From IMG/VR virus record IMGVR_UViG_3300025699_000009, positions 1 through 60,737 of that record: a stretch of 60,737 nucleotides of DNA, one strand, 5' to 3'. Below the pieces are notes generated by a model, which saw nothing but the letters and a program-made list of their open reading frames with translations, was not told the origin of the DNA and made no database searches. A program made the position numbers and the translations under genes. Shown here piece after piece: positions 41,305 through 49,175 of the stretch; within the stretch, counting starts at the first letter, position 1; each line of letters starts with the position of its first letter. The DNA comes from a virus. Taxonomy: Duplodnaviria > Caudoviricetes.

Positions 41305-41527
41305 TGGTGTAGGGGATGTCTCCTACCATCAGGCTGTGGCCTGCGTGTTTGTCGAAGTAGATGGTGTCTGCTTCCTTGATTCCCTTTACCTCCGTACCTA
41401 CAGCATTGACCGTAGCCTTTTTGTAGCGGAAGTCTTTGGTGTCCTGAACAGATAGGATAAGCCCTGACTTGCTCTTCATCTCTTCATCGATAGGAGAGAT
41501 GGCGATGTATTTGCCTATTGGTTTCAT
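41270..41527 (-). CDS. groES: Co-chaperonin GroES
   Basis: MKPIG...KSKSGLIL...VNAVG...IKEAD.IYFDK.AG...IIRESDV. Confidence 0.9.
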   Translation of the reverse strand: MKPIGKYIAISPIDEEMKSKSGLILSVQDTKDFRYKKATVNAVGTEVKGIKEADTIYFDKHAGHSLMVGDIPYTIIRESDVVIVE

Positions 41528-43164
41528 TGTGCCTCATATGTTCGTGCCATAGTAATAATAGCGTTGGTACTTAAGATGCTCACTGCTACGGACACTGCGT
41601 TCTGCAGGGCTACCCGCGTAACCTTGCACGGGTCGATGACTCCCATCTCGATGAGGTCTCCATACCTCGCGTTCTTCACGTCGAAGCCATGCCCCTCTTT
41701 AGTTACTAAGTTCTTCATAGCCGTCTCGTATACATCAGCAAATGAACTACCCGCATTAATAATTATCTGACACACAGGAGAACACAACGCTTCAGATAGA
41801 ATAGCTGCAGCTACAAGGTCTTCAGATTTTTTATACTCCTCGTTCAAAAGCTTCATCTCAATTTTTTGATGCTCGTTATAAAGAGCGACACCTCCGCCGG
41901 GAAGAACGCCCTCCTCAAGAGCGGAGCGCACGGCGCATACAGCATCATCAACCCTATCGTATAGCTCCTTCTGCTCAAGGTCAGTGTTCCCACCTACGCG
42001 GATAACTCCTATGCCACCCGTCAAGGAAGCAATACGAGAAAGGATAAAGTCTTTGTCCGCCTTCTTCGTTGCCAACTTCGCCGCATCCTTCAGCTCGCTT
42101 ACGCGCTTCTTCACAGCATCGGCAGCTTTAAGGTTGTCCTTGATGATGATGGTTTGGTCTTTACCCACGATAACCTTCTTGGCTGAACCGAGGTCAGAAG
42201 GTTGGATAAGGCTGAGGTCGTCGCCCGTAGCTTCAGAGAAGTAAGTAGCTCCCAAACTCAAAGCAATGTCTTGCATAAGCTCGTGCTGCTTATAGCCAAA
42301 GCTCGGAGGAGGAATAGTGCAAATCTTTACCTTCTGCTTCATCACGTTTGCAGCCAACGTGTTGGTAAGCTGCTGAGAGGTAGGCGCAATGATTAAAAGC
42401 TTGCGGTTCTTAGTAGGGTCAACTACATACGTCAGTACCTTCTCGATAGCATGGATGTTATCCATCTCAGCATCCGAAACCAAAACAAGGCAGTCCTCAT
42501 ATACGCACTCGTCCTTCTTGTGGTTGTTGATGAACAACGGAGTAGCATAACCACGCTCTACCTTGATGCCCGTAGTAGTCTCAAATGTAGTGTCGCTCGT
42601 CTGACTCTTCTCCACAGTAACCATCCCCGTCTTGCCAACCTTGTTGTAAACGTCAGCGATAATCTTTCCAACCGTATCGTCATTGTTCGCAGAGATAGTC
42701 GCTACGTCAAGAAGCATCTTCTTGGTTACAGGACGAGAACGATTCTTCAAAGAATCAACCACCTCGTTGGTAAGGCTCACAAGCGAACGCAGAACCTTCG
42801 TCTTGTTGGCATACTTGTTCTCCTCAAACATCTCGACAGCAGCCTTTACCAAACCCTCAGTCAAAACAATAGCAGTCGTCGTGCCATCGCCCGCAGAGGT
42901 AGCAGTACGCTCAGCAGCTTCCTTCATCATGCGAACCGCTAAGTTCTCCGTAGGGTCAACTAGGTCAACCGACTTCGCTACAGTAACACCGTCCTTCGTC
43001 ACAGTAATGCCGTGAGTGTGATGAGGTGATTCGATAAGTACAGTATTGCCGCTAGGCCCAAGCGTACTCTTTACAGCATTGGACAACTTTGTGATTCCAC
43101 TAATGAGGAGGGTGCGACCATCCTCGCCAAATTTTAAGTCCTTGGGACTGTAGCCTTCGTTCAT
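41524..43164 (-). CDS. groEL: Chaperonin GroEL
   Basis: AVKSTLGPSG, TKDGVTVAK, GDGTTTA, EEGVLPGGG and GVIDP.KVTR motifs. Confidence 0.97.
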   Translation of the reverse strand: MNEGYSPKDLKFGEDGRTLLISGITKLSNAVKSTLGPSGNTVLIESPHHTHGITVTKDGVTVAKSVDLVDPTENLAVRMMKEAAERTATSAGDGTTTAIVLTEGLVKAAVEMFEENKYANKTKVLRSLVSLTNEVVDSLKNRSRPVTKKMLLDVATISANNDDTVGKIIADVYNKVGKTGMVTVEKSQTSDTTFETTTGIKVERGYATPLFINNHKKDECVYEDCLVLVSDAEMDNIHAIEKVLTYVVDPTKNRKLLIIAPTSQQLTNTLAANVMKQKVKICTIPPPSFGYKQHELMQDIALSLGATYFSEATGDDLSLIQPSDLGSAKKVIVGKDQTIIIKDNLKAADAVKKRVSELKDAAKLATKKADKDFILSRIASLTGGIGVIRVGGNTDLEQKELYDRVDDAVCAVRSALEEGVLPGGGVALYNEHQKIEMKLLNEEYKKSEDLVAAAILSEALCSPVCQIIINAGSSFADVYETAMKNLVTKEGHGFDVKNARYGDLIEMGVIDPCKVTRVALQNAVSVAVSILSTNAIITMARTYEAQ

Positions 43165-44016: not shown

Positions 44017-44048
44017 TTGTGTAATAGACATTAATTACACTATATTTG
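44017..44048 (+). promoter_or_regulatory. Early promoter P1 (-33 TTG / -7 TATATTTG, AGACAT spacer motif)
   Basis: Bacteroidota consensus with correct spacing. Confidence 0.75.
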
Positions 44049-44101
44049 TGTCAGCAATGCACGAACAAATGACTGCTTGCAAATCTTAAATCTCTCACAT
44101 C

Positions 44102-44770
44102 ATGTTTAACAACTTAAACGAACTCGAAGTAGCATACTTCACAGCCTTCAACGCAAACGGCACTACGCTTGCAAAGTTCTACACTGCTCAGAAGAGCATC
44201 AAGAAATCAGGAGACGCAGTCTTCGAGAAGCGCATCAAGCTATGGCATCAGGTTGACTCGCTGTGGACAGCATTCAACTCCGACGAGGAGAAAGCACGAC
44301 GAGCGGAAGCAGGCATCACGATGACATCAACTGACTTCTCAAAGAAAGTGCTTGGATATAAAGACAGAAGCATGAAAAACTCCATCCTTCGTGCTGTGAA
44401 TAGCATCAATGACAACAGCGATTTGATGACAGCCTACAAGCGTGAGATGACTCGTCTCGGCAAGGGACGTTCGCTCAAGGGATTCAATGCCTTTGCGAAG
44501 CAGGTTGAAGCGCAGGTCTCCAAGGGAGCTACCACAGATGAAGCGGCAGAAGCTACTGCTGATGCAATTGCTACTGCTGATGCTGTTTCCTGCATCGCTC
44601 AACTGCAGTTCTTCGGTCTGCAGAGCGGACGTGTCGCACTCAAGGAGGACGGCACATTCGATTTCACTTCGGTGAACCTACAGCAGGCTGTTGAAGGTGC
44701 GAAGAGTTTTTACGAGCTACTTGCGGCAGAAGCAGTGCGACAGCTCAACGAGCAAGCTCCTGCAATCTAA
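44102..44770 (+). CDS. First early protein, function unknown (222 aa)
   Basis: Follows promoter P1; TCTCTC-type leader. Confidence 0.8.
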   Translation: MFNNLNELEVAYFTAFNANGTTLAKFYTAQKSIKKSGDAVFEKRIKLWHQVDSLWTAFNSDEEKARRAEAGITMTSTDFSKKVLGYKDRSMKNSILRAVNSINDNSDLMTAYKREMTRLGKGRSLKGFNAFAKQVEAQVSKGATTDEAAEATADAIATADAVSCIAQLQFFGLQSGRVALKEDGTFDFTSVNLQQAVEGAKSFYELLAAEAVRQLNEQAPAI

Positions 44771-44791
44771 GTGGGGGTTCAAACCCCCACT
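44770..44791 (+). repeat. GGGGGTTYRAACCCCC hairpin element
   Basis: AGTGGGGGTTCAAACCCCCACT overlapping the stop codon. Confidence 0.9.
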
Positions 44792-44793
44792 CA

Positions 44794-44843
44794 GTTACAC
44801 TGACGAGACCTGAATGGTCGAAACGCTGTGAAGCGTCTGTAAC
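44794..44843 (+). ncRNA. Hammerhead ribozyme, type I (predicted cleavage after GUC, C44837)
   Basis: Stem I GTTACA/TGTAAC; core CTGACGA; stem II GACC-TGAAT-GGTC; GAAA; stem III CGCT-GTGA-AGCG; GTC triplet. Confidence 0.92.
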
Positions 44844-44861
44844 AAATCTAATCTCTCTCTC

Positions 44862-44933
44862 ATGACTCCTGAAAACCTCTACAGAATCTCAACCGCTATC
44901 CTTTGGATTGCATTTATACTCTCTCAGCTATGA
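44862..44933 (+). CDS. Small hydrophobic peptide (23 aa, MTPENLYRISTAILWIAFILSQL)
   Basis: AATCTCTCTCTC leader as in other early genes; ATGA overlap with the amidoligase start. Confidence 0.6.
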   Translation: MTPENLYRISTAILWIAFILSQL

Positions 44934-45907
44934 TTAACTACACAACAGATTCTAACAGCTACCGAGGCACCCTGATGGGCTACCATGGTTCTCCTGCTCC
45001 GCAGGACTTCCGCTCCGGTGCATCCGTATCGGATATCGCAGGCTTGCGTCCTGTAGACCGAGCATCCCTCAAGCAGGTCAGCCTGACGGAGATTGGTGCT
45101 AAGTACGGCATCGGATTCGAAATCGAGAAGACATCCTTCGCTCGCAATGCGATGAAGGCCATGCCATTGTTCGCAGGGTACGAGCGTGACTCATCCTGTG
45201 GGTATGAAGCAGTGACCAACATCCTGCCTTTGCTCCCTGCATCGGAATGGCGCAACAAGGTGTACTCCATGTTCCATCAGGCGGAGCGCATCTTGGATGA
45301 CCAATGGTCACCATCCAACCAACGCTGTGGTGGCCACATCACCCTATCCTGTGACGGCATGAATGGAGGTGAATTGATGGAGCACATCCGTCCGTACTGC
45401 GGCATCCTACTCTCGCTCTATCGCAGACGATTGAAGAACAGCTACTGCTCTCGCAATCCAAACCTGCGCTTGGCGCATGAAGTTGAGAGTGCGCTTGGCG
45501 GAATCGCTTCGAAGTACAATGTTGCCAAGGTGATGAGTCATGGGGTTGAGTTCCGCCTTCCATCTCGCGTTCGCTCGGTGAGCGACATGAAGCGCAGGTA
45601 CGAGCTGATGTACGTCTTGGTTGACTGCGCTCGCCAATCGTTCGAAGGCAATGCACCGACATGGGCGAAGGCGATGTCACGCATCAAGCCAATCGTCTCA
45701 CTCATGTACCGAGACGAAGCGAAGGAGCAGAAGATTCTATCTCTCGCCAAGGATATGCAGAAGTTCATCAACACCGGCAAGATGGAATTCTCAGTGCTCC
45801 CATTCATCGACCCGTATGCAGAGACTGCATCATCCTTCAGGACGCGACGATGCAACCGACTGATTGCGCAGGGTGAGCGAGCTTACTACAGCGAGTCGCG
45901 ATGGTGA
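44930..45907 (+). CDS. Putative amidoligase (COOH-NH2 ligase, Amidoligase_2-like)
   Basis: GFEIE, DSS, E.VT.IL, CGGHI and VEFR motifs; start taken at the ATG at 44930. Confidence 0.72.
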   Translation: MINYTTDSNSYRGTLMGYHGSPAPQDFRSGASVSDIAGLRPVDRASLKQVSLTEIGAKYGIGFEIEKTSFARNAMKAMPLFAGYERDSSCGYEAVTNILPLLPASEWRNKVYSMFHQAERILDDQWSPSNQRCGGHITLSCDGMNGGELMEHIRPYCGILLSLYRRRLKNSYCSRNPNLRLAHEVESALGGIASKYNVAKVMSHGVEFRLPSRVRSVSDMKRRYELMYVLVDCARQSFEGNAPTWAKAMSRIKPIVSLMYRDEAKEQKILSLAKDMQKFINTGKMEFSVLPFIDPYAETASSFRTRRCNRLIAQGERAYYSESRW

Positions 45908-45915
45908 GACCTTTG

Positions 45916-45937
45916 GGTGGGGGTTCAAACCCCCACC
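45916..45937 (+). repeat. GGGGGTTYRAACCCCC hairpin element
   Basis: GGTGGGGGTTCAAACCCCCACC, 8 nt after the stop and abutting the second ribozyme. Confidence 0.9.
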
Positions 45938-45990
45938 TGCTGTCGGGCGATGTGCATCGCTCCTGATGAGTCCGAAAGGACGAAACAGCA
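45938..45990 (+). ncRNA. Hammerhead ribozyme, type III (predicted cleavage after GUC, C45944)
   Basis: Stem III TGCTGT/ACAGCA; GTC; stem I GGGCGA-TGTGCA-TCGCTC; core CTGATGA; stem II GTCC-GAAA-GGAC; GAAA. Confidence 0.95.
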
Positions 45991-46027
45991 AACCAACAAA
46001 CGGGTGATGGCCTACCATCGAAACGTC

Positions 46028-46117
46028 ATGAACAATATCGAATCACAAGTCAAGTGGGTTTTCCGAATTGCCATTGCATTCCTCTTCCTTGCCGCGTACC
46101 TAACATCAGGCTGTTAA
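46028..46117 (+). CDS. Small hydrophobic peptide (29 aa, MNNIESQVKWVFRIAIAFLFLAAYLTSGC)
   Basis: Single transmembrane-like segment ending in a lipobox-like LTSGC. Confidence 0.5.
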   Translation: MNNIESQVKWVFRIAIAFLFLAAYLTSGC

Positions 46118-46136
46118 TAACTTTTAACATTCATTG

Positions 46137-46168
46137 TTTGGAATTAGACATTCATTGCACTATATTTG
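46137..46168 (+). promoter_or_regulatory. Early promoter P2
   Basis: TTTG-N20-TATATTTG with GAATTAGACAT in the spacer. Confidence 0.8.
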
Positions 46169-46216
46169 TACTATCAATCACGGAGGAACACTCCTCCACT
46201 AAAATCTCTCTCTATC

Positions 46217-46552
46217 ATGCGTAGACAACGCAACCCCCACACGAGCGGTGAGAACCGCAACCATTACACCAAAGGCTATCAGGCCAAGGTGGAGTTTTGG
46301 ACAGGCCAACTGCTACAGCCTGACGGCAGGTACTCGCACGAGCGAGTCATGCAATCGCTCCTTCACTTCCAATCTAAGCAACAGGAATGGTGCGAGGCAA
46401 ACGAGACAATGCTCATGGCTAAATTCGAAGATGCCTGTCGTGCAGGACACGGCACGCTGAACGCTCAGGTAGACTTCATGGGCTTCGGTCAGCAGGCCAC
46501 ATTGCACTGCCGTGACATCGTTACAGCACAGCAAAACAAGCGTCAGTCATGA
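46217..46552 (+). CDS. Early hypothetical protein (111 aa)
   Basis: ATG at 46217 after the TCTCTCTC leader. Confidence 0.7.
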   Translation: MRRQRNPHTSGENRNHYTKGYQAKVEFWTGQLLQPDGRYSHERVMQSLLHFQSKQQEWCEANETMLMAKFEDACRAGHGTLNAQVDFMGFGQQATLHCRDIVTAQQNKRQS

Positions 46553-46919: not shown

Positions 46920-46934
46920 ATAAATCTCTCTCTC

Positions 46935-47195
46935 ATGAAATTCTACAGAACATTCATGGTCTCGTATCAAGCACCAACAGAACACAAAGGTGCGCGAGTC
47001 CGAATCAAAGACCTCTCCGAAGGCACACGTATCTTCATCCCATTCAACTACGAGTTGAACACCATCACAGAGATGGCGAAGGCTCACCTTAAATCAATTG
47101 GGATTCCAATCGTGGCTGAGGCACTCACCCACAAATCAGGATGGGACTCTTACCTGCTACTCTCGAACGAGTACGTAAACCTCCTTGAGAAATGA
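46935..47195 (+). CDS. Early hypothetical protein (86 aa)
   Basis: ATG at 46935 after AAATCTCTCTCTC; Y..PT..KGARV.I pattern. Confidence 0.7.
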   Translation: MKFYRTFMVSYQAPTEHKGARVRIKDLSEGTRIFIPFNYELNTITEMAKAHLKSIGIPIVAEALTHKSGWDSYLLLSNEYVNLLEK

Positions 47196-48023: not shown

Positions 48024-48047
48024 TGGTGGGGGTTCAAACCCCCACCA
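48024..48047 (+). repeat. GGGGGTTYRAACCCCC hairpin element
   Basis: TGGTGGGGGTTCAAACCCCCACCA. Confidence 0.9.
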
Positions 48048-48080
48048 TCTTTCTCCCCTAAAAAAAAATATCTCTCATCA

Positions 48081-48112
48081 TTTGGAATTAGACATCTTTT
48101 GTACTATCTTTG
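48081..48112 (+). promoter_or_regulatory. Early promoter P3
   Basis: TTTG-N20-TATCTTTG with GAATTAGACAT in the spacer. Confidence 0.8.
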
Positions 48113-48143
48113 TACAATCATTAATCATTTAAACACATCTCTC

Positions 48144-49175
48144 ATGTGCGTTATCATTATCAAACAACAGACCGACAAGGTCATAGACCAAACCATACTG
48201 CGCTCGTCTGCGCGTATCAACCCACACGGGTTAGGAGTTACATGGCTCGACACATTCAAGACAGAGTACTATAACTCAGCAGACTACGATGTGCTTGAAA
48301 CCAAGCGACCCTTCATCGCACACTTCCGATACGCTACCATAGGTGGGGTGACTCAGCACAATATGCACCCATTCGTATGCGGTACTCAAGACCACGAGCT
48401 ACTCATGATGAACGGTACAATCAAAGGATTGGGTGACAAGACAGATTGCGACAGCCGAGTTCTAGCAGGTATGCTCGGAGAACTGCCGCGTGATACATGG
48501 AAGGATACATTGGAGGAGCACGAGTGCCGATTCACTACCATCAATACCAAGGCTCGCACCTTTGAGATATACAACGAAGATATGTGGCACACGCATGACG
48601 GCATCATGTACTCAAAGCCCAACGTCCTGTTCACCAACACGATTGCGGTATACGGTACGCTCAAGAAGGGACAGGGCAATCACCCACGATTCCTGTCACG
48701 AGCAGAGTTCGTAGGTTCAGGTATCACGCAGGACAAGTACCCGCTCTTGATTGACGGACTACCTTACCTGCTACCTGAAAAGGGGACAGGTCACCGAGTA
48801 GAGATGCACGTGTTCCGTGTGACGGACGAGATGCTATACGATGTGGACATACTCGAAGGTCATCCACGTTGGTATGTGCGTGAGCAGATACCTGTCCATG
48901 TGGGTAGCGAGACGCACATGGCTTGGACATACTTCAACCCCAAGCACCGACAGCCATCTGATGAGATGCACTACACGTTCCCTGCGCCCTCACCATGGGA
49001 CGCTGATATGGCTGAAGACGATGAGCTTCTGCCCCTTGAATATGGCAACGCATACTACTGCCTTAATTGCTTCAACGCGGTAGAGAAAGATAACTCAGCC
49101 TTTGATACATACACCTGCAAGACTTGCAGTGAGAGCTTTGATGAAGCAGAACTAAACCAATACAAATTATTCTAA
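48144..49175 (+). CDS. Class II glutamine amidotransferase fused to gamma-glutamylcyclotransferase (AIG2-like) and a Zn ribbon (343 aa)
   Basis: N-terminal MC, NPHG.G, HFRYAT.G, HPF, NGTI, DSR; then VYGTLK.G..NH, LEGHP..Y.R, AW.Y; CLNC/CKTC at the C-terminus. Confidence 0.85.
   Translation: MCVIIIKQQTDKVIDQTILRSSARINPHGLGVTWLDTFKTEYYNSADYDVLETKRPFIAHFRYATIGGVTQHNMHPFVCGTQDHELLMMNGTIKGLGDKTDCDSRVLAGMLGELPRDTWKDTLEEHECRFTTINTKARTFEIYNEDMWHTHDGIMYSKPNVLFTNTIAVYGTLKKGQGNHPRFLSRAEFVGSGITQDKYPLLIDGLPYLLPEKGTGHRVEMHVFRVTDEMLYDVDILEGHPRWYVREQIPVHVGSETHMAWTYFNPKHRQPSDEMHYTFPAPSPWDADMAEDDELLPLEYGNAYYCLNCFNAVEKDNSAFDTYTCKTCSESFDEAELNQYKLF

What the first reader, a model, noticed from the sequence alone, without database searches (positions are those of the whole stretch)
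44770..46117. Two hammerhead ribozymes bracket an early gene: self-excising, possibly circularising, phage mRNA
Seen: the unit [stop codon - GGGGGTTCAAACCCCC hairpin - hammerhead - small hydrophobic ORF] occurs twice in tandem on the sense strand behind promoter P1. The predicted cuts after C44837 and C45944 would release a 1,107-nt RNA carrying the 23-aa peptide ORF and the whole amidoligase gene. The type I/type III pairing leaves both catalytic cores outside this fragment. Established: hammerhead cleavage gives 5'-OH and 2',3'-cyclic phosphate ends, the substrate pair of RtcB ligases; retrozymes and the engineered Tornado system circularise RNA this way. Inference: the phage processes its early transcript without protein help (analogous to RNase III cutting of T7 early mRNA), producing a stabilised or circular mRNA. 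Phage hammerheads are known; I know of no described case with this gene-flanking architecture.
Basis: partly seen in the sequence, partly recalled or inferred. Interest (0 to 1): 0.93.

Follow-up and report, generated by a model that had tools for sequence, protein, structure and literature searches.

The report
Hammerhead ribozymes punctuating phage early mRNA
Two genuine self-cutting RNA motifs sit on either side of one gene in a marine phage and most likely chop a long transcript into single-gene messages with protected ends, an arrangement already described for phages in 2011 rather than a new kind of circular mRNA.

Summary
A type I hammerhead (44794-44843, cut after C44837) and a type III hammerhead (45937-45991, cut after C45944) lie on the sense strand either side of a 23-aa ORF and a 325-aa gene. 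Each follows a stop codon and a G+C-rich hairpin. Cores are canonical, Rfam scores fall just under the curated cut-offs, and relatives show compensatory stem changes.

- The hairpin is the phage's generic terminator-like hairpin, with 11 copies.
- The small ORFs are missing in two close relatives.
- The conserved element is the 3' module of hairpin, type III hammerhead, roughly 20-nt leader and ATG. It follows this gene in 65 of 81 related phage loci. Only 12 of 81 also carry an upstream hammerhead.

I read this as intercistronic self-cleavage that yields separate mRNAs with hairpin-protected 3' ends.

Gene-flanking hammerheads in phages, and the circular-RNA idea, are already in print: Perreault et al. 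2011 looked for circles and did not detect them. Nothing here supports circularisation. Both cores lie outside the fragment, no conserved pairing joins its ends, and the phage has no RtcB. No cleavage has been observed directly.

Verdict: a new member of a known kind.

The parts
44026..44049 (+).
   Evidence: The motif occurs exactly twice in the window, against 0 expected. The second copy overlaps a sigma-70-like match, TTGGAA-17-TATATT. This first copy was not flagged by that scan. Promoter function is inferred.
44102..44770 (+). 222-aa ORF of unknown family; its mRNA would end at the type I hammerhead
   Evidence: ORF list. No Pfam or PHROG match. A homologue in L005 is itself preceded by a further type I hammerhead.
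44771..44790 (+). G+C-rich hairpin without a T-run, 3 nt before stem I of the type I hammerhead
   Evidence: One of 11 copies of the phage's hairpin. Folds as a 9-bp stem.
44794..44843 (+). Type I hammerhead ribozyme; predicted cut after C44837
   Evidence: RF00163, 31.9 bits, E 2.2e-5 in 2.5 kb. The core is canonical. Stems II and III show compensatory changes in L003, L004 and L005. The same core occurs in 78 viral contigs. 76 of the 78 pattern hits are complete hammerheads, and they carry 30 stem I variants.
44862..44933 (+). 23-aa ORF with a hydrophobic C-terminus. Its ATG lies 24 nt after the cut, and its stop overlaps the next gene's start (ATGA).
   Evidence: Translation. Conserved in L005, absent in L003 and L004, where the 325-aa gene starts at this position.
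44930..45907 (+). 325-aa gene with a glutamine-synthetase-like fold (amidoligase-like)
   Evidence: No Pfam, PHROG or PDB-sequence match. AlphaFold2 pLDDT 93.8. Foldseek top hits are glutamine synthetase, GmaS, PafA and YbdK, with E 7.7e-5 and TM about 0.3. 273 homologues were found, none named.
45915..45937 (+). G+C-rich hairpin without a T-run, abutting stem III of the type III hammerhead
   Evidence: In the fold, a 10-bp stem ends with no unpaired base before stem III. An equivalent hairpin is present in 45 of 46 distinct stop-to-hammerhead spacers in relatives, and its sequence differs from phage to phage.
45937..45991 (+). Type III hammerhead ribozyme; predicted cut after C45944
   Evidence: RF00008, 45.7 bits, E 3.3e-8. 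My own model R1 gives 68.5 bits. 12 of 16 pairs covary across 38 distinct relatives. A type III hammerhead sits just 3' of this gene in 65 of 81 loci.
46007..46117 (+). Small ORF with a hydrophobic C-terminus, 36 aa from ATG 46007 or 29 aa from ATG 46028; the first cistron after the type III hammerhead
   Evidence: Translation. Present in L005, deleted in L003 and L004.
46146..46169 (+). Second copy of the promoter-like motif, closing the interval

Best explanation
Both elements are functional hammerhead ribozymes. They cut the sense transcript of the phage's early/replication arm between cistrons.

The type I ribozyme cuts 24 nt before a start codon and stays on the 3' end of the upstream (222-aa) message.

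The type III ribozyme cuts 7 nt after a terminator-like hairpin that has no U-tract.
- The mRNA of the 23-aa ORF and the 325-aa gene therefore ends in a stable hairpin plus a 2',3'-cyclic phosphate.
- The next cistron starts with a 5'-OH and the folded ribozyme, about 16-20 nt before its ATG.

The net effect is protein-free conversion of a polycistronic transcript into separate messages. Their ends are poor substrates for 3' exonucleases, for polyadenylation and for 5'-monophosphate-dependent decay. The stability and translation of neighbouring genes are thereby uncoupled.

Shown: the motifs, their strand and position, and their conservation and covariation.
Inferred: transcription as one unit, cleavage in vivo, and the stabilising effect.
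For: 1. Canonical cores and three helices, with Rfam E 3.3e-8 and 2.2e-5. The minimum-free-energy folds equal the hammerhead folds.
2. All 3 close relatives found (L003, L004, L005; 72-92% aa identity) keep both ribozymes in place. Compensatory changes occur in stem III and stem II of the type I ribozyme and in stem II of the type III ribozyme.
3. Type III alignment of 38 distinct relatives: 97.7% of cells paired against 72.7% in shuffles and 34-46% when slid. 12 of 16 pairs change on both sides.
4. Model R1 finds 108 matches in 82 sources (510 kb), all on the gene's sense strand.
5. Synteny: a type III hammerhead lies just after this gene's stop in 55 of 81 loci by regex. Ten further loci are added by R1, giving 65 of 81, at 40-92% aa identity.
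6. Module anatomy:
   - 80 of 96 distinct type III contexts have a strong hairpin ending within 2 nt of stem III, against 26 of 300 random positions.
   - 95 of 96 have an ATG-ORF within 150 nt, with a mode of 19-24 nt.
   - For the type I class, 60 of 62 distinct copies have an ATG-ORF within 150 nt, with a mode of 24-26 nt after the cut.
7. Arrays are common. 30 of 78 loci carrying the type I core have two or more same-strand hammerheads, with up to 5-6 within about 1.5 kb.
8. Precedent: Perreault 2011 showed in vitro cleavage of three such clustered arrangements and in vivo cleavage of one expressed in E. coli (passages).
Against: - No cleavage of this RNA has been observed.
- Contigs from two libraries on record as RNA (X14, X16) run across both predicted cut sites. 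Uncleaved RNA or carried-over DNA is therefore present. Contigs cannot give proportions.
- Both Rfam scores are below the gathering cut-offs.
- The L005 copy of the upstream ribozyme has C instead of U at core position 4. Two L005 ribozymes have an extra U after A9, so some copies may be slow.
- In L003 and L004 nothing is encoded between the type III ribozyme and the next promoter-like motif. The 'leader for the next cistron' half of the model does not hold there.
- 16 of 81 related loci, and MW202828, show no hammerhead after the gene. The element is dispensable.
- Co-transcription from 44026 is inferred.
- The rows were picked by a scanner that requires stems, which inflates the percentage paired.
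Confidence: 0.7

Rival explanations
1. Circular mRNA. The 1,107-nt fragment released with 5'-OH and 2',3'-cyclic-phosphate ends is joined by a host RtcB-type ligase into a stable, translatable circle.
For: The end chemistry expected from two hammerhead cuts matches RtcB substrates (established knowledge). In the minimum-free-energy fold of the fragment, nt 15-30 pair with nt 1057-1072. That would bring the ends near each other.
Against: - Both cores lie outside the fragment, so no hammerhead can form across the junction to hold the ends, unlike in viroids and retrozymes.
- The predicted long-range pairing is disrupted in L003 and has no counterpart in L005. The summed pairing probability of the first 25 nt with the last 25 nt is only 0.26.
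- The phage has no RtcB, while the control search found RtcB in 10 of 14 genomes. The host is unknown.
- Flanking on both sides is the minority state, 12 of 81 loci.
- Perreault 2011 looked for circular or spliced products from clustered phage hammerheads and did not detect them.
Confidence: 0.05
2. The primary function is ribozyme-made 3' end formation or insulation. The hairpin plus type III hammerhead stands in for an intrinsic terminator. It cuts off read-through RNA so that the upstream gene's message ends cleanly and is not fused to the next promoter's transcript. The downstream product is incidental.
For: - The hairpins before both ribozymes lack the T-run that other copies of the same hairpin carry.
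- In L003 and L004 the type III ribozyme is followed only by the next promoter-like motif.
- The hairpin abuts stem III in 80 of 96 contexts.
Against: - 95 of 96 type III contexts have an ORF start at a tight 19-24 nt after the ribozyme. That argues the downstream product matters too.
- Cleavage does not stop the polymerase.
Confidence: 0.15
3. Conditional cleavage. The ribozymes are tuned, or slowed by core variants, so that cutting and hence the ratio of neighbouring gene products changes with Mg2+, temperature, ribosome traffic or infection stage.
For: - Natural core variants recur in relatives: U4C in L005, and an extra U after A9 in L105, L106, L108 and L138.
- The stop codon lies 0-10 nt before the hairpins, so terminating ribosomes could affect folding.
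- Perreault 2011 raise regulated cleavage for phage variants.
Against: The window's own two ribozymes have fully canonical cores and no aptamer-like insert.
Confidence: 0.07
4. Selfish or relic elements. The hammerheads are leftovers of small mobile RNAs or DNAs that settled in intergenic DNA, with no benefit to the phage.
For: - Near-identical type I copies within one genome (L005).
- The same type I core with different flanks in other contigs of the same samples.
- Perreault 2011 note that the flanked genes vary.
Against: - The position after one gene family is kept in 65 of 81 loci, down to 40% aa identity, with covarying stems and intact cores.
- All 108 R1 matches are on the sense strand.
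- Spacing to start codons is fixed.
Confidence: 0.03

Closest known systems
Clustered hammerheads flanking genes in prophages (Perreault et al. 2011, PLoS Comput Biol; PMC3088659; passages read; figures and supplements not seen)
   Same: Several hammerheads of mixed types lie on one strand and flank single genes or short gene blocks in phage DNA. Processing of long transcripts into single-gene mRNAs was proposed, and circular products were considered.
   Different: - Here the host genome is an uncultured ~60-kb marine phage record, not a prophage of a cultured bacterium.
- The 3' ribozyme is tied to one gene family in 65 of 81 loci, whereas they report that the flanked genes vary.
- The abutting hairpin is not mentioned in the passages I read.
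- Their examples were shown to cleave. This one was not tested.
HHphage of haloviruses HF1/HF2 (as described in Perreault 2011)
   Same: [quoted passage not shown] The mapped 5' end falls within 3 nt of the cut site.
   Different: It is a single ribozyme with a variant core in an archaeal virus, 13 nt from the start codon. Here the spacing is 24 nt (type I) and 16-20 nt after the ribozyme (type III).
RNase III processing sites of T7 early mRNA (recalled, not checked here)
   Same: Intercistronic cuts leave hairpins at the 3' ends of single-gene messages and stabilise them.
   Different: That cut is made by a host protein and leaves 5'-phosphate and 3'-OH ends. Here the RNA cuts itself and leaves 5'-OH and 2',3'-cyclic-phosphate ends.
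Viroid, retrozyme and engineered twin-ribozyme circles (de la Pena et al. 2020, PMC7229834, listing and start of abstract only; Tornado recalled)
   Same: Two self-cleaving ribozymes bracket an RNA and give ends that tRNA-ligase or RtcB enzymes can join.
   Different: In those systems the excised RNA keeps a complete ribozyme or paired termini that hold the ends together. Here both cores are lost and no conserved end pairing exists.
Synthetic ribozyme insulators such as RiboJ (recalled, not checked here)
   Same: A hammerhead plus an adjacent hairpin, placed before a ribosome-binding site, standardises the 5' end of a message.
   Different: That is an engineered part with the hairpin downstream of the ribozyme. 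Here the module is natural and the hairpin lies upstream, on the other cleavage product.

Membership tests
Hammerhead ribozyme (Rfam clan CL00010; type I RF00163, type III RF00008) | Conserved catalytic core (CUGANGA, GAAA, cleavage triplet NUH) in the right order for the type | tested here: met
   Both sites carry every core position and a GUC triplet. The orders are type I (open stem I) and type III (open stem III).
Hammerhead ribozyme (Rfam clan CL00010; type I RF00163, type III RF00008) | Three helices around the core, supported by covariation | tested here: met
   - Compensatory changes in close relatives.
- Type III: 12 of 16 pairs change on both sides, with 0 of 500 shuffles reaching the observed covariation score.
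- Type I: 30 stem I variants among 62 distinct copies.
- Minimum-free-energy folds agree.
Hammerhead ribozyme (Rfam clan CL00010; type I RF00163, type III RF00008) | Score at or above Rfam's curated gathering cut-off (an operational threshold, not a structural feature) | tested here: not met
   31.9 against 34 bits, and 45.7 against 48.5 bits. E-values stay at 5.2e-4 and 7.9e-7 for the whole window. A model built from relatives gives 68.5 bits.
Hammerhead ribozyme (Rfam clan CL00010; type I RF00163, type III RF00008) | Site-specific self-cleavage | not testable with these tools
   Only assembled contigs were served for the RNA runs.
Clustered gene-flanking phage hammerheads (Perreault 2011) | Two or more hammerheads on one strand flanking a gene or short gene block in phage DNA | tested here: met
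   Window. 12 of 81 related loci are flanked on both sides. 30 of 78 type I loci carry arrays.
Clustered gene-flanking phage hammerheads (Perreault 2011) | All ribozymes lie in one transcript | tested here: inconclusive
   Promoter-like motifs stand only at 44026 and 46146, and no T-run terminator lies between them. No transcript data are available.
Ribozyme-derived circular RNAs (viroid, retrozyme, twin-ribozyme designs) | Ends of the excised RNA held together by a re-formed ribozyme or by conserved terminal pairing | tested here: not met
   Both cores are outside the fragment. The predicted pairing near the ends is weak and is not conserved.
Ribozyme-derived circular RNAs (viroid, retrozyme, twin-ribozyme designs) | A ligase for 5'-OH and 2',3'-cyclic-phosphate ends is available | tested here: inconclusive
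   No RtcB in the phage, while the control search found it in 10 of 14 genomes. The host is unknown.
Ribozyme-derived circular RNAs (viroid, retrozyme, twin-ribozyme designs) | Junction-spanning (back-joined) RNA | not testable with these tools
   Contigs only, and they drop rare forms.
Amidoligase / glutamine-synthetase-fold carboxylate-amine ligases | Match to a curated family model | tested here: not met
   No Pfam hit for the protein at E<=10, and none for any of 31 homologues at E<=1. No PHROG hit. No PDB sequence hit better than E 0.43.
Amidoligase / glutamine-synthetase-fold carboxylate-amine ligases | Glutamine-synthetase-like fold | tested here: inconclusive
   The model is confident (pLDDT 93.8). 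The top 30 or so Foldseek hits are all glutamine synthetase, GmaS, PafA, YbdK or glutamate-cysteine ligase, with best E 7.7e-5. However, TM is only 0.26-0.35 and rmsd 10-17.
Amidoligase / glutamine-synthetase-fold carboxylate-amine ligases | Neighbourhood with glutamine amidotransferase and gamma-glutamyl cyclotransferase genes (association recalled from Iyer et al. 2009) | tested here: met
   48099-49175 encodes weak GATase hits plus GGACT, E 8.8e-20. MW202828 has the same pair of neighbours.

The most novel reading that the evidence does not exclude
The excised hammerhead-bounded message is ligated by a host RtcB-type enzyme into a circular, exonuclease-proof, translatable phage mRNA. A stronger candidate than the window's type I/type III pair is the type I/type I pair in the relative L005. 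There the excised RNA keeps a whole hammerhead at its 3' end. Its 5' end carries the matching stem I strand, so the ribozyme could re-form across the junction as in viroids.
Probability: 0.05. Interest if true: 0.85.

Novelty: new member of a known kind. Interest (0 to 1): 0.42.

Why it matters
What hammerheads do in bacteria and phages is still an open question; the 2019 review says so in the passages I read. This locus adds no new principle. It does point to a large, uncultured lineage of ~60-kb marine phages in which hammerheads act as regular punctuation of the early/replication arm.

- One position is kept in 65 of 81 genomes, down to 40% protein identity.
- The anatomy is fixed: hairpin, ribozyme, roughly 20-nt leader, start codon.

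That regularity gives a concrete, testable model. Ribozymes would set both mRNA ends, standing in for terminators and for RNase III-type processing. It also offers a compact natural part for insulating genes in engineered operons.

If the small chance of circularisation proved true, it would be the first natural circular mRNA of a phage.

Tried and rejected
**Rfam at gathering thresholds.** It found nothing in the window. The E-value mode was needed.

**RNA evidence.**
- Only Logan contigs were available.
- The break of the X14 and X16 contigs at 44797-44826 has a 30-nt overlap. It coincides with other contigs that share the type I core but have different flanks. I read it as an assembly-graph branch, not an RNA end.
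- The 'joint' 45937 to 46137 is a second place of the same contig (hairpin plus promoter-like motif near 48028-48113) aligning to the stretch. It is not a splice.
- No back-joined contig was seen, which proves nothing.
- X17 covers only parts of the stretch, with many differences, so it is a relative.

**MW202828.** This is the only GenBank phage with a homologue. It has no hammerhead by Rfam (E<=1), by RF00163 over the whole record, by my scanner or by R1.

**Pseudomonas phage PaP3.**
- I fetched it because Perreault 2011 tested a variant hammerhead from it.
- Papers on LUZ24-like phages mention amidoligase and amidotransferase genes (listing only).
- Rfam at E<=0.1 found only tRNAs, so I dropped the lead.

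**Host identification.** A scan of genome contigs gave two metagenome-assembled contigs only.

**T-arm idea.** I considered whether the hairpin mimics a tRNA T-arm and rejected it. The loop is 4-6 nt, L005 has the reverse-complement loop, and copies with T-runs look like ordinary terminators.

**Literature.** Searches for a description of the hairpin-abutted type III module, or of marine-phage hammerhead arrays, found none in the held library. Subscription papers were not searched. The figures, Dataset S1 and other supplements of Perreault 2011 could not be seen and may bear on this.

**Bias in my counts.** The scanner requires perfect stems next to the core. It therefore undercounts hammerheads and biases the selected rows towards pairing.
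Full report
**What is there**

The window is a complete 60,737-bp virus record. The minus strand carries structural genes, including a P22-like portal. The plus strand from about 43.9 to 58.5 kb carries, in order:
- small ORFs;
- the 325-aa gene discussed here;
- a glutamine-amidotransferase/GGACT fusion;
- a Sak annealing protein;
- a primase;
- an SNF2-type helicase.

At the start of this plus-strand arm the sequence reads as follows:
- a promoter-like motif at 44026-44049;
- a 222-aa ORF at 44102-44770;
- a hairpin at 44771-44790;
- a type I hammerhead at 44794-44843;
- a 24-nt leader;
- a 23-aa ORF at 44862-44933, overlapping by ATGA the 325-aa gene at 44930-45907;
- a hairpin at 45915-45937;
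- a type III hammerhead at 45937-45991;
- a small ORF at 46007-46117;
- a second copy of the promoter-like motif at 46146-46169.

The predicted cuts after C44837 and C45944 bound a 1,107-nt RNA. Because the upstream ribozyme is type I and the downstream one type III, both cores lie outside that RNA.

**Are the hammerheads real?**

- Rfam finds nothing at gathering thresholds.
- In E-value mode it finds exactly these two sites and no other ribozyme. RF00008 scores 45.7 bits (cut-off 48.5, E 7.9e-7 for the whole window). RF00163 scores 31.9 bits (cut-off 34, E 5.2e-4).
- Every core position is canonical.
- Minimum-free-energy folds of the isolated motifs, and of the motifs with their hairpins, give the hammerhead three-way junctions. 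Their z-scores are -2.2 to -4.1.
- A regex scanner I wrote requires the core plus perfect stems next to it. It finds these two sites in the window and 0.2 sites per shuffled window.

**Relatives**

Three viral contigs encode the 325-aa protein at 92, 91 and 72% identity. All three keep both ribozymes at the same places.
- L003 and L004 swap two base pairs of stem III of the type I ribozyme.
- L005 swaps a pair in its stem II. It also rebuilds stem II of the type III ribozyme, with an extra U after A9. Rfam misses that copy. My scanner and my model find it.
- L005 has C for U at core position 4 of the upstream ribozyme.
- L005 carries a third hammerhead (type I, L005:2110-2160) in front of the homologue of the 222-aa gene.
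- In L003 and L004 both small ORFs are absent. The 325-aa gene starts where the 23-aa ORF starts in the window, and the type III ribozyme is followed directly by the next promoter-like motif. The small ORFs are therefore not part of the conserved unit.

**The hairpin**

GGGGGTTYRAACCCCC occurs 11 times in the window, against 0.27 expected by chance. It is oriented with the local genes. Several copies are followed by T-runs, like ordinary intrinsic terminators. The two copies before the hammerheads lack T-runs. The hairpin is the phage's generic terminator-type stem, here paired with a ribozyme instead of a U-tract.

**The wider picture**

*Type I class.*
- The type I core with its stem II loop occurs in 78 stretches of the viral-contig collection.
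- 76 of the 78 are complete hammerheads, giving 62 distinct sequences with 30 different, complementary stem I pairs.
- The cleavage triplets are GUC (58), GUA (3) and GUU (1).
- 60 of the 62 have an ATG-ORF within 150 nt of the cut, with a sharp mode at 24-26 nt.
- 30 of the 78 loci hold two or more hammerheads on one strand, with up to five or six within about 1.5 kb.

*Homologues of the 325-aa gene.*
- Among the window plus 80 viral loci encoding homologues (40-92% identity), tblastn plus my scanner finds a type III hammerhead cutting 27-74 nt after the stop codon in 55 of 81 (one of these is scored at -9 nt).
- A hammerhead within 200 nt upstream is found in 12 of 81, six of type I and six of type III.
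- A covariance model built from 39 of these type III copies finds 108 matches in 82 sources. All lie on the sense strand, at E of 1e-8 or better.
- That search adds ten loci, giving 65 of 81 with the 3' ribozyme. Some of the other 16 loci end at or near the gene.

*Covariation in the type III alignment.*
- 97.7% of cells pair, against 72.7% in shuffles and 34-46% when the partners are slid.
- 12 of 16 pairs change on both sides.
- The rows were chosen by a scanner that demands stems. The percentage paired is therefore inflated, but the variety of pair types is not.

*Module anatomy.*
- In 45 of 46 distinct stop-to-ribozyme spacers a strong hairpin ends right at stem III. Its sequence differs from phage to phage.
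- Over all 96 distinct type III contexts fetched, 80 have such a hairpin, against 26 of 300 random positions.
- 95 of the 96 have an ATG-ORF within 150 nt after the ribozyme, with a mode of 19-24 nt.
- The conserved module is therefore hairpin, type III hammerhead, short leader, start codon.
- The window's upstream type I ribozyme belongs to a second, widespread class that sits about 25 nt before start codons.

**How it most likely works**

Established hammerhead chemistry gives a 2',3'-cyclic phosphate on the upstream product and a 5'-OH on the downstream one.

- *Type III ribozyme.* The upstream message ends in hairpin-CUGCUGUC>p, 7 nt beyond a 10-bp G+C stem. That end should resist 3' exonucleases and cannot be polyadenylated. 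The downstream message begins with 5'-OH and the folded ribozyme.
- *Type I ribozyme.* The folded ribozyme, preceded here by another hairpin, caps the upstream message. The downstream message begins with a 24-nt 5'-OH leader.
- *Net effect.* I infer protein-free conversion of a polycistronic early transcript into separate, end-protected mRNAs. This would uncouple the fates of neighbouring genes. The abutting hairpin may also stack on the short, open stem III, and it may shield the ribozyme from the coding sequence and from terminating ribosomes.
- *Status.* Motifs, positions, strand bias and conservation are shown. Co-transcription, cleavage in vivo and stabilisation are inferred.

**Evidence against, and limits**

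- No cleavage was observed.
- Only assembled contigs were available for the RNA libraries. Contigs of X14 and X16 run across both cut sites, so uncut RNA or carried-over DNA is present.
- The contig break inside the type I ribozyme has a 30-nt overlap and coincides with other contigs sharing that core. I take it to be an assembly branch.
- Some relatives lack the ribozyme. MW202828, the only GenBank phage with a homologue, has none.

**Circularisation**

I found nothing for it.
- The fragment retains neither core, so no ribozyme can re-form across its ends.
- The only end-proximal pairing in the predicted fold (nt 15-30 with nt 1057-1072) is not conserved in L003 or L005.
- The phage has no RtcB, and the host is unknown.
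- Two-sided flanking is the minority state (12 of 81).

**Comparison with what is known**

- Perreault et al. 2011 (passages read) already report the following. Multiple hammerheads flank individual genes or short gene blocks in prophages. [quoted passage not shown] Spliced or circular products were considered, and neither was detected.
- They showed cleavage of three tandem arrangements in vitro and of one in E. coli.
- They also describe a halovirus hammerhead 13 nt before the first start codon of an early transcript, whose mapped 5' end matches the cut.
- The 2019 review (passages) repeats the idea of polycistronic processing and notes that the function is unproven.
- My searches did not turn up three things: the tight synteny of a type III hammerhead with one gene family, the abutting hairpin, or the scale of hammerhead punctuation in this marine phage lineage. 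I could not see the figures or supplements of the 2011 paper, nor subscription papers.

**The flanked gene**

- It has 273 homologues, none annotated.
- It matches no Pfam, PHROG or PDB sequence.
- A confident AlphaFold2 model (pLDDT 93.8) matches only glutamine-synthetase-type ligases in the PDB, with best E 7.7e-5, at low TM of about 0.3.
- Together with the nearby amidotransferase/GGACT gene, 'amidoligase-like' is plausible but not established.

**Verdict**

- The processing interpretation is supported by comparative evidence.
- The circular-mRNA idea and the novelty claim are not supported.
- This is a new member of a known kind, with a well-conserved module worth a bench test.

Noticed in passing
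window 5309, 22328, 33073, 43808, 44773, 45919, 46901, 48028, 51459, 53267, 58580 (16-nt cores): This is a family of 11 near-identical G+C hairpins (GGGGGTTYRAACCCCC, often extended by GGGT/ACCC), oriented with the local genes. Some have T-runs and some do not. It looks like the phage's standard terminator stem.
   Followed up: partly
window 44026-44049, 46146-46169, and a looser copy near 48090-48113: A repeated promoter-like motif precedes gene groups of the plus-strand arm. The looser third copy follows a hairpin with an A/T-rich tail.
   Followed up: partly
L005:2110-2160: This relative has a third hammerhead (type I, GUA site, extra U after A9) in front of the homologue of the 222-aa gene. 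Its stem I is identical to that of the next type I copy. The RNA excised between them would keep a whole ribozyme plus the matching 5' strand.
   Followed up: partly
L105, L106, L108, L138 (type III copies listed): A recurrent natural core variant has one extra U between A9 and stem II, together with a rebuilt 5-bp stem II. Rfam's model misses it at E<=1.
   Followed up: no
window 46004-46030: Right after the type III ribozyme, a small hairpin (GAUGG-CCUA-CCAUC) covers the first ATG (46007) and is followed by CGAAACGUC and a second ATG (46028). This stretch is nearly identical in L105, L106 and L107, although the proteins differ by 28-54%.
   Followed up: no
window 44847-44864, 46203-46219, 46920-46938: CU-rich leaders (AATCTCTCTCTC-ATG), without a purine-rich Shine-Dalgarno, precede several plus-strand genes. 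This may hint at the host's mode of translation initiation.
   Followed up: no
window 44852-44867 with 45894-45909: In the minimum-free-energy fold of the 1,107-nt fragment, the leader and start codon pair with the stop-codon region of the 325-aa gene. The pairing is not conserved in L003 or L005, so it is probably chance.
   Followed up: yes
window 41524-43164 (-) and 48099-49175 (+): The phage encodes a Cpn60/GroEL-type chaperonin (E 2.6e-57). It also encodes a fusion with weak class-II glutamine-amidotransferase hits and a gamma-glutamyl cyclotransferase-like GGACT domain (E 8.8e-20).
   Followed up: no
runs X10, X14, X16, X17 at window 44792-44851: Other contigs in the same marine and sediment samples carry the same type I core with quite different flanks and a fully re-paired stem I. 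This ribozyme class is shared by co-occurring phages.
   Followed up: partly
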